From Escherichia coli (GTDB lineage: Bacteria > Pseudomonadota > Gammaproteobacteria > Enterobacterales > Enterobacteriaceae), in the NCBI RefSeq assembly GCF_003334385.1, contig NZ_QOWN01000066.1: DNA of 14,062 bases; one strand, given 5' to 3'. The translations under genes and the position numbers were made by a program. Under the pieces are notes generated by a model. It had not been told where the DNA came from and ran no database searches. It saw only the letters and a program-made list of their open reading frames with translations. Shown in pieces: positions 9,979 to 10,893 of the stretch. The stretch's first letter is position 1. Every line of letters begins with the position of its first letter.

Positions 9979-10893
9979 TCAGTGAGTGATTTTCTTCAGT
10001 TCGTCATCGGAAAGTCCGGTAGCCTGCTTAATCTGCTCCGGCGTCATCCCCATTTTCTGAAGCTGGCACGCAATAGCCAAGGCTTTTTCAAGCGCTCCTT
10101 CCATGCGTCCTTCCATCCTGCCTTCCTGGCGACCTTTTTGCTCAAGACGTTCTGCGATAGTCATCAGTTTATCCTCATGCTGCGGCAGACGCTCAGCCAG
10201 CGCCCGCATAAATTCCGGTGATACAGAGTCCCCTGCGTTAACGATGTAATGAATCAGAACACGCACCTGTTCATCTGAAATTTCCACCATGACCTGCGGG
10301 AGTTTGTCCAGCAGCTCCATCATGTCACGATGGCGGATATGCTTCATCAGCAGCGTCAGTGCGGCCATCCGGCGATGGTTCATGATTTCATTGTCATCAA
10401 CGACAGTGATATCAACCAGCGGAAACGGCTTTGTGTATATTTTAGCCGCAAGTGCCGGATTCTCAAAACAGTCCAGCCAGTTCATGCTGTACGGGTACGG
10501 GCTGCGCTCACCGTGATAGAACAGCACCGGAATCACCAGTGGCAACGTTTTGTGCTGCTCCAGATGTCTCTGCATCGCCGCCACACTGTAGCGTAACATG
10601 CGAAAAGGCATGTACAGATTTTCTGTGCTCTGGTGCTCGATGAGCGTATAAACATAACCATCTTCACCCCCGGTGGTTTTCACGCTCCAGAGGATATCGC
10701 TGGCGTACTGATGCAGGTCCGGCTCAACAAAGGTGGCGGGTTCCAGCTTCAGCGTGGACAGGTCGCACAACTGCCGGTGCTCCGCAGGAAGATGCAGTTC
10801 CAGAAAATCCCTGGCAACGTCGGGATTCGCCAGGAACGACCGGAACGCGGCATCATGCGGCGTGGGCGTTGTGGTGTTTTTCTTCTTACTCAC
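9979..10893 (-). CDS. Rpn-family (YhgA-like, transposase_31 / PD-(D/E)XK-type) recombination-promoting nuclease, 304 aa
   Basis: Start taken at GTG 10893..10891 preceded by AGGAGG (the track's longer ORF has no ribosome-binding site). Matches the Rpn N-terminal signature TPHDAAFRSFL...ARDFLELHLP, the block YASDILWSV...GYVYTLIEHQS...FRMLRY, and a repeat-containing C-terminal tail (GRQEGRMEGRMEG). Confidence 0.8.
   Translation of the reverse strand: MSKKKNTTTPTPHDAAFRSFLANPDVARDFLELHLPAEHRQLCDLSTLKLEPATFVEPDLHQYASDILWSVKTTGGEDGYVYTLIEHQSTENLYMPFRMLRYSVAAMQRHLEQHKTLPLVIPVLFYHGERSPYPYSMNWLDCFENPALAAKIYTKPFPLVDITVVDDNEIMNHRRMAALTLLMKHIRHRDMMELLDKLPQVMVEISDEQVRVLIHYIVNAGDSVSPEFMRALAERLPQHEDKLMTIAERLEQKGRQEGRMEGRMEGALEKALAIACQLQKMGMTPEQIKQATGLSDDELKKITH

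What the first reader, a model, noticed from the sequence alone, without database searches (positions are those of the whole stretch)
9979..10893. Rpn-family nuclease in the leading region with an internal start for its own C-terminal tail
Rpn (YhgA-like) proteins promote RecA-independent recombination and have been described as toxic antiphage proteins controlled by a small protein translated from an internal in-frame start. Here an in-frame ATG at 10164..10162 is preceded by GAGGA 7 nt upstream and would produce a 61-aa tail peptide (MTIAERLEQKG...). Placing such a gene in the first-transferred region is unusual and suggests either a defence function or a role in rearranging incoming DNA.
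Basis: partly seen in the sequence, partly recalled or inferred. Interest (0 to 1): 0.7.

Follow-up and report, generated by a model that had tools for sequence, protein, structure and literature searches.

The report
Known plasmid Rpn nuclease with internal antitoxin

Summary
A 304-codon ORF lies on the minus strand (GTG 10893, stop 9979). It has GAGGA at 10176-10172, a 7-nt spacer, and an in-frame ATG at 10164-10162 that opens a 61-aa tail.

The gene is ygdB of IncI-complex plasmids. It is the same locus as 'plasmid-encoded RpnP2' of Zhong et al. 2023 (PNAS). Their synthetic DNA is 98% identical to the window across the upstream region and the 5' end of the gene. Their RpnP2L* mutant destroys the SD and ATG at this same position. 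In that ortholog the long form alone is toxic, the wild-type gene that also makes the short form is not, and the pair reduces plaquing of T-even phages.

The window carries a different C-terminal allele with three 4-aa repeats. The repeat number runs from 0 to 5 among sampled IncI plasmids.

A second free-standing tail gene (rpnSs, 9747-9917) follows a conserved terminator.

The leading-region position is real but not unusual. 2,040 PLSDB plasmids carry the locus, and Rpn families rank 18th and 20th among leading-region families in Samuel et al. 2024.

The only under-discussed point is that a class-1 ssDNA promoter (ssi) sits upstream of ygcA-ygdA-rpn.

Verdict: already known, low interest.

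The parts
9979..10893 (-). rpnL (ygdB / rpnP2-type), 304 aa, GTG start, TGA stop
   Evidence: Translation. PF04754 over aa 11-207, E = 3.8e-78. TIGR01784 181 bits. 99% identical to cluster P0001, which has 3,227 member sequences. Annotated 'Rpn family recombination-promoting nuclease' in RefSeq plasmids.
10898..10903 (-). Shine-Dalgarno AGGAGG of rpnL, 4 nt before the GTG
   Evidence: Sequence. Same junction, aggaggaaccGTGAGTAAG, in primers AO733 and AO739 of Zhong et al..
10273..10863 (-). N-terminal PD-(D/E)XK nuclease domain (aa 11-207). Catalytic residues: D14 (10854-10852), D66 (10698-10696), E86 (10638-10636), Q88 (10632-10630).
   Evidence: Pfam match. These four residues are the ones changed (D14A, D66A, E86A, Q88K) in the published active-site mutant gBlock AO730. 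All four are present in the window protein.
10439..10466 (-). Candidate internal sigma-70 promoter, TTGAGA-16-TAAAAT (10 of 12), about 275 nt upstream of the internal start
   Evidence: Consensus scan: 2 sites found in 3 kb against 1.3 expected, so not significant by itself. Identical in the ECOR13 gBlock AO714. Zhong et al. cite dRNA-seq evidence for internal promoters in the chromosomal rpn genes.
10172..10176 (-). Internal Shine-Dalgarno GAGGA (codons His-Glu-Asp), 7 nt before the internal ATG
   Evidence: Sequence. GAGGA is kept in all 13 IncI loci examined, whichever tail allele they carry. It was mutated together with the ATG in RpnP2L*.
9979..10164 (-). rpnS: internal in-frame ORF, ATG 10164-10162, 61 aa, the putative antitoxin tail
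   Evidence: Met conserved in 75 of 76 distinct tails. A profile of the tails matches the RpnA_S crystal-structure sequence 7TH0 over its full length, E = 5.7e-13.
10096..10131 (-). Three 12-nt (4-aa) repeats, RQEG-RMEG-RMEG, starting at residue 12 of RpnS
   Evidence: TRF period 12 at 10097-10126. The copy number is 0, 1, 2, 3, 4 or 5 in sampled IncI plasmids. Tail lengths in homologs fall on a 49+4n series in 73 of 76 cases.
9941..9967 (-). Intrinsic terminator after rpn: 9-bp stem AGCCCGGCA/TGCCGGGCT, then TTTTTT
   Evidence: Scan. A compensatory A-T to G-C change at the stem base in other IncI loci (GGCCCGG...CCGGGCC) preserves pairing.
9747..9917 (-). rpnSs: free-standing second copy of the tail module, 56 aa (MTLAERLIQKGFEKGALEVAREIACRLWNMG...), one FEKG repeat
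   Evidence: Direct repeat of the rpnS DNA at 75-79%, with the register kept up to the ATG (D2 and D7). 54% aa identity to RpnS, E = 3e-18. Matches the C-terminal positions 226-273 of TIGR01784. Intact in 13 of 13 loci with 0, 1, 2 or 4 repeats. pN/pS about 0.29.
10958..11224 (-). ygdA, 88 aa, unknown function, directly upstream of rpn on the same strand
   Evidence: ORF list. Annotation in LC567055. Its 3' part is inside the 300 bp 'native promoter' fragment of the RpnP2 gBlock.
11316..11750 (-). ygcA, 144 aa, unknown function, first gene after the ssi element
   Evidence: ORF list. Annotation. phrog_1987, E = 1.3e-20, unknown function.
11800..12150 (+). Class-1 ssi/Frpo-type single-stranded-DNA promoter element. 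The plus strand is the transferred strand and is the strand that folds.
   Evidence: Folds as ssDNA to -130.5 kcal/mol, z = -10.1. 89% identical to the element directly upstream of ygcA in IncI1 pP819-1 and in pESBL-EA11. Each of those plasmids has exactly three copies. ssi1-3 were mapped as ssDNA promoters in pESBL (PMC12672017).
7466..7479 (+). oriT nick-region motif CACATCCTGTCCCG
   Evidence: Sequence, lying between nikA and the leading-region genes. Its identification as the R64-type nick region rests on my own recollection of the R64 oriT, not on a tool result.

Best explanation
The region is an RpnL/RpnS 'gene within a gene' toxin-antitoxin module. It is the IncI-plasmid locus that Zhong et al. 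2023 named rpnP2.

How it most likely works:
- Translation from GTG 10893 gives RpnL, a 304-aa protein with an N-terminal PD-(D/E)XK DNA endonuclease domain and a helical tail.
- Independent initiation at GAGGA-N7-ATG (10176-10162), possibly also from a shorter internal transcript, gives RpnS, the 61-aa tail alone.
- RpnS pairs with the identical helix in RpnL and keeps the nuclease inactive.
- Partner specificity is set by the number of 4-aa repeats in the first helix, three in this allele.
- Phage infection or another cue releases RpnL, and the resulting DNA cleavage limits phage yield.

Around the gene:
- A terminator follows the stop codon.
- A diverged free-standing tail gene, rpnSs, comes next.
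- Upstream, a class-1 single-stranded-DNA promoter (ssi) heads ygcA-ygdA-rpn, so the module is probably transcribed from the incoming strand soon after conjugative entry.

Shown here: the sequence anatomy, family membership, identity of the locus with rpnP2, conservation of the internal start, repeat polymorphism, and the ssi position.

Taken from the paper on the ortholog: that RpnS is made, that RpnL alone is toxic, and that the pair defends against phage.

Inferred: that this particular tail allele behaves the same way, and that rpn is zygotically induced.
For: Family:
- PF04754, E = 3.8e-78.
- TIGR01784, 181 bits against a 52.1 cut-off.
- D14, D66, E86 and Q88 are present.

Same locus as RpnP2:
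- gBlock AO591 (300 bp upstream plus the 5' end of the gene) is 98.2% identical over window 11191-10795.
- AO730 is 96.0% identical including its four engineered changes.
- AO714 matches the window (two mismatches) up to about codon 205 and then diverges.
- The ECOR13 tail allele equals that of pESBL-305 at 97.7%, with mismatches mainly at the engineered internal start.

Internal start:
- The same SD+ATG position was mutated in RpnP2L*.
- Met is kept in 75 of 76 tails.
- All five GAGGA-N5-9-ATG matches in the window sit at gene starts.
- The downstream duplicate starts at the same ATG register.

Tail:
- A profile of the tails hits 7TH0 (RpnA_S) at E = 5.7e-13.
- The repeats start at residue 12.
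- The repeat copy number varies from 0 to 5 among IncI plasmids.
- Match lengths among plasmids differ in 12-nt steps.

Function in the ortholog (PMC10400941):
- RpnP2L* is strongly growth-inhibitory; RpnP2LS is not.
- Plaquing of T2, T4 and BASEL T-even phages is reduced.
- Protection is mostly lost with the active-site mutations.
- The ECOR13 deletion strain has reduced protection.

ssi:
- Fold z = -10.
- One of exactly three class-1 copies in pESBL-EA11 lies directly upstream of ygcA-ygdA-rpn.
- In pESBL these promoters drive the operons that are induced early in conjugation.
Against: - No expression or activity data exist for this allele. Its C-terminal ~100 aa differ from the tested ECOR13 protein (about 80% identity overall).
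- The internal promoter is only a 10-of-12 consensus match, no commoner than chance.
- PADLOC 2.0 has no model that matches.
- The tails do not match Pfam DUF4351 in this library.
- The reported phage protection was modest (about 10-fold) and depended on conditions such as pH 8.5 or low temperature.
- Whether ssi-driven transcription reaches rpn, the third gene, is not stated in the text I could read. The figures are not held.
Confidence: 0.85

Rival explanations
1. Establishment or competition role rather than phage defence. Because the ssi promoter works only on the incoming single strand, the first transcripts are full-length and the internal double-strand promoter is silent. This would give a short excess of RpnL, an active nuclease, at entry. 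Alternatively, early RpnS and RpnSs could act as orphan antitoxins against Rpn nucleases of resident plasmids.
For: - An ssi element lies directly upstream of ygcA-ygdA-rpn.
- The gene has the T-strand-template orientation typical of early leading-region genes.
- Rpn families are leading-region-enriched (FDR p = 0, median positions 3-4 from oriT) in Samuel et al..
- Zhong et al. saw a higher RpnL:RpnS ratio when transcription came from an upstream inducible promoter.
- RpnS and RpnSs repeat numbers match in only one of 13 loci. Repeat number sets partner specificity for RpnC.
- Samuel et al. propose orphan antitoxins as anti-defence factors.
Against: - Wholly inferential. Neither Zhong et al. 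nor the two leading-region papers searched (PMC11541004, PMC12672017) reports a conjugation phenotype for rpn in the text I could read.
- An active nuclease at entry would induce SOS, which the same leading region normally suppresses through PsiB. This particular plasmid lacks psiB within the window.
- rpnSs has almost no chromosomal DNA relatives in E. coli: 30 of 2,650 matched places. A chromosomal target is therefore not indicated.
Confidence: 0.15
2. The internal ATG is an ordinary methionine codon and GAGGA is a by-product of the His-Glu-Asp codons. On this view only the full-length protein is made and there is no separate tail peptide.
For: - The motif count in the window is not above shuffled expectation: 5 found against 2.6 +/- 1.5.
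- No expression data exist for this allele.
Against: - The homologous SD+ATG was mutated in RpnP2L*, which unmasked strong toxicity. RpnP2S was reported at high levels by tagging.
- Met is kept in 75 of 76 tails.
- A free-standing copy of the module starts at the same Met.
- The crystallised RpnA_S aligns from residue 1 of the tail profile.
Confidence: 0.04
3. It is a transposase or insertion-sequence remnant, as older annotations say ('putative transposase', 'ISNCY family transposase', Transposase_31).
For: - Best NCBIfam name by score is PRK09956 'ISNCY family transposase', at 331 bits but below its 583-bit cut-off.
- phrog_3300 is labelled 'transposase'.
Against: - No terminal inverted repeats flank 9979-10893.
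- The gene sits in the same place, between ygdA (or an extra short ORF that follows ygdA in three loci) and the small tail ORF and ygeA, in every IncI locus sampled.
- Zhong et al. found no inverted repeats, no target duplications and no defined ends for rpn genes generally.
Confidence: 0.02

Closest known systems
RpnP2 L/S of the E. coli ECOR13 plasmid (Zhong et al. 2023, PNAS; PMC10400941)
   Same: - Same plasmid locus: ygdA, then rpn, then terminator, then rpnSs.
- 98% nt identity over the upstream 300 bp and the 5' end of the gene.
- Same GTG start and SD.
- Same four catalytic residues.
- Same internal SD+ATG position.
- 4-aa repeats in helix 1 of the tail.
   Different: - From about codon 205 the window carries another tail allele: MTIAERLEQKG-(RQEG/RMEG)x3 against MTLAERLKQEG-(IQQG)n. 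Overall protein identity is about 80%.
- The window allele (cluster P0001, 3,227 member sequences, the largest cluster listed) has not itself been tested.
Chromosomal RpnA-RpnE of E. coli K-12 (Kingston et al. 2017; Zhong et al. 2023) and the RpnA_S structure 7TH0
   Same: - Domain architecture.
- Internal start producing RpnS.
- Three-helix tail: the profile hits 7TH0 at E = 5.7e-13.
- Repeat polymorphism.
   Different: - Paralogs only. The RpnA equivalog model scores 322 bits against a 583-bit cut-off.
- A homolog that one source names RpnB is 57% identical.
- This gene is plasmid-borne, and lies in a leading region behind an ssDNA promoter.
rpnE-ypaA (RpnE_Ss) and rpnC-rpnC_Ss arrangements: a second tail gene downstream of rpn
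   Same: A free-standing tail paralog lies immediately downstream of the rpn gene and has its own 4-aa repeat polymorphism.
   Different: - Here a conserved terminator separates the two genes.
- The repeat units differ: F(D/E/K)xG against R(Q/M)EG.
- The repeat counts match in only one of the 13 loci.
- The published RpnP2 constructs stop after about 13 codons of rpnSs, so it was never tested.
Leading-region anti-defence islands with Frpo/ssi ssDNA promoters (Samuel et al. 2024; PMC12672017)
   Same: - T-strand-template orientation.
- A class-1 ssi hairpin upstream.
- The neighbours in other IncI plasmids are ardA, psiB, ssb and klcA.
- Rpn families are listed among the top 20 leading-region families.
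   Different: - Rpn is a nuclease toxin-antitoxin pair with reported anti-phage activity, not a known inhibitor of host defence.
- Neither paper discusses it in the text.

Membership tests
Rpn (RpnL/RpnS gene-within-gene toxin-antitoxin) | N-terminal YhgA-like PD-(D/E)XK domain (PF04754 / TIGR01784 / COG5464) | tested here: met
   PF04754 over aa 11-207, E = 3.8e-78. TIGR01784 181.1 bits against a curated cut-off of 52.1.
Rpn (RpnL/RpnS gene-within-gene toxin-antitoxin) | Catalytic residues of the nuclease site | tested here: met
   D14, D66, E86 and Q88 are present. These are the residues changed in the published RpnP2 active-site mutant AO730.
Rpn (RpnL/RpnS gene-within-gene toxin-antitoxin) | C-terminal helical tail homologous to RpnS (three-helix bundle, dimerisation helix) | tested here: met
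   A profile of 19 tails matches 7TH0_A (RpnA_S) at E = 5.7e-13, profile positions 1-54 against chain residues 1-45. This is sequence homology only; no structure was predicted.
Rpn (RpnL/RpnS gene-within-gene toxin-antitoxin) | In-frame internal translation start with its own SD at the start of the tail | tested here: met
   GAGGA-N7-ATG at 10176-10162. Met in 75 of 76 tails. The same site was mutated in RpnP2L*. Actual initiation cannot be tested with these tools.
Rpn (RpnL/RpnS gene-within-gene toxin-antitoxin) | Internal promoter giving a short transcript for RpnS | tested here: inconclusive
   One sigma-70-like site at 10466-10439 (10 of 12). The number of sites in the region is no higher than in shuffles.
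Rpn (RpnL/RpnS gene-within-gene toxin-antitoxin) | 4-aa repeats beginning 8-20 residues after the RpnS Met, with copy number varying between strains | tested here: met
   RQEG-RMEG-RMEG starts at residue 12. TRF finds period 12. 0-5 copies in 13 IncI loci. Tail lengths fall on 49+4n in 73 of 76 cases.
Rpn (RpnL/RpnS gene-within-gene toxin-antitoxin) | RpnL toxicity and nuclease activity, neutralised by cognate RpnS; phage protection | not testable with these tools
   Reported for the ECOR13 ortholog only (PMC10400941). PADLOC 2.0 has no matching model.
DUF4351 (PF14261) small proteins | Match to the Pfam model | tested here: not met
   None of the 19 tail and RpnSs sequences matches PF14261. 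Only weak HTH-like hits appear, such as Raf1_HTH. The precomputed label for homologs is PF27070, which the Pfam-A scans run here did not report.
Insertion sequence / transposase | Terminal inverted repeats, target duplication, variable insertion sites | tested here: not met
   No flanking inverted repeats. Fixed synteny in all sampled IncI plasmids.
Zygotically induced leading-region genes (ssDNA-promoter operons) | Within the first-transferred segment, coded so that the T-strand is the template, with an Frpo/ssi hairpin upstream | tested here: met
   2.5-3.4 kb from the nick-region motif. Minus-strand gene with a plus-strand T-strand. ssi at 11800-12150, dG -130.5 kcal/mol, z = -10. Homologous to the copy upstream of ygcA in pESBL-EA11.
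Zygotically induced leading-region genes (ssDNA-promoter operons) | Transient induction in new transconjugants | not testable with these tools
   Inferred from PMC12672017. That paper describes six induced operons in pESBL, three of them behind ssi1-3. The figure naming the genes is not held.

The most novel reading that the evidence does not exclude
The position behind an ssDNA-only promoter could act as a timer for the toxin-antitoxin ratio.
- In a fresh transconjugant only full-length ssi-driven transcripts exist, so RpnL is made in relative excess and the nuclease is briefly active.
- Once the complementary strand is synthesised, ssi shuts off and the internal promoter and start over-produce RpnS, silencing the nuclease.

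Such a pulse could attack resident competitors or promote RecA-independent recombination. A related reading is that early RpnS and RpnSs neutralise the Rpn nucleases of resident IncI plasmids. The diversity of repeat numbers would then reflect plasmid-plasmid conflict rather than phage pressure.
Probability: 0.12. Interest if true: 0.7.

Novelty: already known. Interest (0 to 1): 0.25.

Why it matters

The biology, however, is published. The locus is rpnP2 of Zhong et al. 2023. Its enrichment in leading regions is tabulated by Samuel et al. 2024.

What remains open is a link that none of the papers searched makes in its text. A toxic nuclease/antitoxin pair, carried by about a quarter of complete E. 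coli genomes on IncI-type plasmids, sits behind a promoter that fires only on incoming single-stranded DNA. If early expression changes the toxin-to-antitoxin ratio, that would bear on the unanswered question of how RpnL is released. It would also bear on how IncI resistance plasmids establish themselves or compete.

Tried and rejected
- Rfam scan of the whole window at gathering thresholds: no matches.
- PADLOC 2.0 on Rpn, RpnSs, ygdA, ygcA and ygfB: no matches.
- Pfam on the tail alignment: no DUF4351, only weak HTH-like hits.
- Single-sequence PDB search with the tail: top hits were repeat proteins (PPR, DotG, designed repeats) with no significant single stretch, and 7TH0 scored only E = 0.023. 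The profile search resolved this.
- Sigma-70 scan: no convincing promoter in the 300 bp upstream of rpn, and only one internal candidate.
- I tried to locate -35/-10 boxes in the ssi hairpin by eye. I could not assign them and dropped the attempt.
- I looked for Rpn in the leading regions of other plasmid groups. The Klebsiella IncF/IncR example has rpn in an IS26-rich patch beside a truncated tra region, not in a leading region, so I did not pursue this further.
- I tested whether rpnSs resembles chromosomal rpn tails at the DNA level. It does not: 30 of 2,650 matched places are chromosomal.
- Supplementary files are not held for the PNAS version. The bioRxiv version supplied them.
- The supplement of PMC12672017 is not held, so per-gene induction values for rpn could not be read.
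Full report
**1. The observation**

On the minus strand the ORF begins at GTG 10893-10891, four bases after AGGAGG (10903-10898). It runs for 304 sense codons to TGA 9981-9979. GAGGA lies at 10176-10172, followed by a 7-nt spacer and an in-frame ATG at 10164-10162. From that ATG the frame gives 61 residues, MTIAERLEQKG...KKITH. Every coordinate in the finding is correct.

The mechanical ORF list extends the frame to TTG 10950. GTG 10893 is the start that carries the Shine-Dalgarno sequence. 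It is also the start annotated in RefSeq plasmids and the one used in the published constructs.

**2. Where the window comes from**

The window is an IncI-complex conjugative plasmid. Its layout is:
- trbC at 731-3034, plus strand.
- nikB at 4328-7039 and nikA at about 7051-7383, both minus strand.
- an oriT nick-region motif, CACATCCTGTCCCG, at 7466-7479 on the plus strand.
- a leading region whose genes nearly all lie on the minus strand.

The plus strand is therefore the transferred strand and the template for these genes.

The gene in the finding is ygdB of IncI1 plasmids. It is now annotated 'Rpn family recombination-promoting nuclease/putative transposase'. The 1.3-kb stretch around it is found in 2,040 PLSDB plasmids, 1,903 of them typed conjugative.

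**3. What the protein is**

- Pfam PF04754 (Transposase_31, YhgA-like) matches residues 11-207 at E = 3.8e-78.
- NCBIfam TIGR01784 (Rpn family) scores 181 bits against a cut-off of 52.1.
- The RpnA equivalog model scores 322 bits, below its 583-bit cut-off, so this is a paralog of RpnA.
- A profile of 19 tail sequences matches the crystallised RpnA_S (PDB 7TH0) end to end at E = 5.7e-13.

**4. Identity with a published, tested gene**

Zhong et al. 2023 (PMC10400941) showed that rpn genes are genes within genes. The full-length RpnL is a toxic DNA endonuclease. The C-terminal tail, RpnS, is translated from an internal start and blocks it. Their representative for phage work was 'plasmid-encoded RpnP2' from E. 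coli ECOR13.

Dataset S2 of the bioRxiv version gives their synthetic DNA. I aligned it to the window:

| gBlock | Content | Match to window |
|---|---|---|
| AO591 | 300 bp upstream plus 5' end of gene | 98.2% over 11191-10795 |
| AO730 | active-site mutant | 96.0% over 10893-10496, including the engineered changes |
| AO714 | RpnP2L* | only two mismatches up to about codon 205, then divergent |

The engineered changes in AO730 are D14A, D66A, E86A and Q88K. All four wild-type residues are present in the window protein.

In AO714 the codons immediately before TLAERL read tctgacaccatttta. The wild-type ECOR13-type allele is found in pESBL-305 (97.7% identical to AO714, with mismatches mainly at that site). 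There the sequence reads GAGGACAGCATTATG.

With that mutation RpnP2L* could only be cloned under a repressed promoter, and it strongly inhibited growth when induced. RpnP2LS was harmless. It reduced plaquing by T2, T4 and several BASEL T-even phages, mostly dependent on the active site. Deleting the gene from ECOR13 reduced protection.

**5. Independent sequence support for the internal start**

- Among 100 full-length homologs (56-99% identity) the motif PQH(E/G)Dx(L/I)-M-T(I/L)A is conserved. Met is present in 75 of 76 distinct tails.
- The pattern GAGGA-N5-9-ATG is not over-represented in the window: 5 matches against 2.6 +/- 1.5. However, the other four matches all sit at gene starts.
- A diverged copy of the tail module downstream begins at its own ATG in register with this one (D2 and D7).

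**6. Repeats and alleles**

Residues 12-23 of RpnS are three 4-aa units, RQEG-RMEG-RMEG, encoded by 12-nt repeats at 10096-10131 (TRF).

In 13 IncI loci the same allele has 0, 1, 2, 3, 4 or 5 units. The ECOR13-type allele has 4 or 5 IQQG-type (IQQG/VQQG) units in the two loci sampled.

Across homologs, tail lengths fall on the series 49, 53, 57 ... 85 in 73 of 76 cases. Match lengths of a 601-nt query in plasmids differ by multiples of 12 nt. This is the polymorphism Zhong et al. describe. They showed that it sets RpnS-RpnL specificity for RpnC.

The window's allele belongs to cluster P0001 (99% identity, 3,227 member sequences), the largest cluster among those listed. The tested ECOR13 protein is about 80% identical overall because its C-terminal third differs.

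**7. The second tail gene**

After the stop codon comes a strong intrinsic terminator at 9967-9947, followed by TTTTTT. Its stem shows a compensatory A-T to G-C change in other plasmids.

Thirty bases further on, ATG 9917 opens a 56-aa ORF, MTLAERLIQKGFEKGALEVAREIACRLWNMG..., ending at 9747.
- It is 54% identical to RpnS (E = 3e-18).
- It matches the C-terminal positions of TIGR01784.
- It is intact in 13 of 13 loci.
- It has its own repeat polymorphism: 0, 1, 2 or 4 units of F(D/E/K)xG.
- Its rough pN/pS is 0.29.

This corresponds to the 'RpnSs' genes described downstream of rpnE (ypaA) and rpnC.

Its repeat number equals that of the neighbouring RpnS in only one of the 13 loci. The published RpnP2 constructs include only 101 bp downstream, about 13 codons of it. 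It is therefore not needed to neutralise RpnL, and it has never been tested.

It occurs in 1,341 of 5,426 complete E. coli genomes, almost always on plasmids.

**8. The leading-region context**

The stretch 11800-12150, folded as plus-strand ssDNA, forms a long hairpin of -130.5 kcal/mol with z = -10.1.
- It is 86% identical to a second copy at 8933-9261.
- It is 89% identical to the element directly upstream of ygcA in IncI1 pP819-1 and in pESBL-EA11.
- Each of those plasmids has exactly three such copies, upstream of ssb, ygcA and ygfB.

PMC12672017 reports that pESBL has six operons strongly induced within 15 min of transfer. Each lies behind an ssDNA promoter, and three of those promoters are the class-1 elements ssi1-3, with start sites mapped by 5' RACE.

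No terminator-like site lies between the ssi and the rpn start on the minus strand. By inference, then, ygcA-ygdA-rpn is one of those operons. The text I could read does not name the genes.

**9. Is the position unusual?**

No. Supplementary file 3 of Samuel et al. 2024 lists two relevant families:
- 'Recombination-promoting nuclease RpnB' is family 18: 2,601 members, FDR p = 0, median position 4 from oriT, strand +1.
- A mixed 'RpnE/hypothetical' family is number 20: 2,372 members, position 3. This is probably RpnSs.

Neither that paper's main text nor PMC12672017 mentions Rpn, and Zhong et al. do not mention conjugation or leading regions. No paper in the library joins the terms.

The only gap, then, is the explicit link between the RpnP2 toxin-antitoxin and ssDNA-promoter-driven early expression.

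**10. Rivals**

- *Ordinary Met codon.* This is contradicted by sections 4 and 5.
- *Transposase.* This is contradicted by the absence of flanking inverted repeats and by fixed synteny.
- *Establishment or competition role.* This cannot be excluded and is stated as the novel case. An ssDNA-only upstream promoter combined with a dsDNA-only internal promoter could give a transient RpnL excess at entry. Alternatively, early tails could neutralise the Rpn of resident plasmids. The supporting hints are indirect.

**11. Verdict**

The feature is already known: a common, untested tail allele of the published rpnP2 locus. Interest is low, with a modest residual question about timing of expression after transfer.

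Noticed in passing
window 9747-9917 (-): A free-standing second tail gene (rpnSs, 56 aa) lies after the rpn terminator. It is intact in 13 of 13 IncI loci with 0, 1, 2 or 4 four-aa repeats. Its repeat number equals that of the adjacent RpnS in only one locus. pN/pS is about 0.29. The published RpnP2 constructs cut it off.
   Followed up: yes
window 11800-12300, versus L001 11091-11588 and 17435-17782: This plasmid lacks ardA, psiA, psiB, the parB-like gene and ssb. Window 7389-12300 matches IncI1 pP819-1 up to the ssi upstream of ygcA. Window 11804-13642 matches from the ssi upstream of ssb onward. This looks like a ~6-kb deletion by recombination between two ssi copies. The same layout is seen in NZ_CP099341.
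   Followed up: partly
window 1-7388 versus 7389-13642: There is a mosaic junction at oriT/nikA. trbB/trbC are 74% and nikB/nikA 70.6% identical to IncI1, while the leading region is 93-96% identical.
   Followed up: partly
window 3035-4327: A 1.3-kb low-GC (41.6%) insert lies between trbC and nikB. It carries ORFs 3148-3441 (+) and 3829-4260 (-, with a lipoprotein-like N-terminus). In IncI1 pP819-1 the two genes are 37 nt apart.
   Followed up: no
window 9356-9464: Two AT-rich palindromic repeats (AAAGTGAA...TTCACTTT; direct repeat D4, inverted repeat I2) lie immediately upstream of the HTH gene ygeA (9465-9716, +). They look like operators.
   Followed up: no
window 13593-13945: A 32-nt inverted repeat (13622-13653 / 13828-13859) lies upstream of the klcA-like antirestriction gene (13161-13589, -). 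The stretch is 87.7% identical to the region upstream of ardA in IncI1. This fits the 'class 2' ssDNA promoter described for klcA and ardA in PMC12672017.
   Followed up: partly
window 8933-9261: A second class-1 ssi copy (86% identical to 11800-12128) lies upstream of ygfB (DUF4942, 8037-8888, -). It is the element closest to oriT.
   Followed up: partly
L014 (pESBL-EA11) 16517-16906; also L004 and L007: Some IncI plasmids carry an extra 390-nt ORF between ygdA and rpn that overlaps the rpn start. It is annotated as hypothetical or 'CbiX'. It is absent from the window.
   Followed up: no
window 10958-11224 (-), ygdA: YgdA-like proteins appear within family 1, the largest leading-region family in Samuel et al. 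2024 (4,739 members, uncharacterised). Its function is unknown, and it had no hits in NCBIfam, PHROGs or PADLOC.
   Followed up: no
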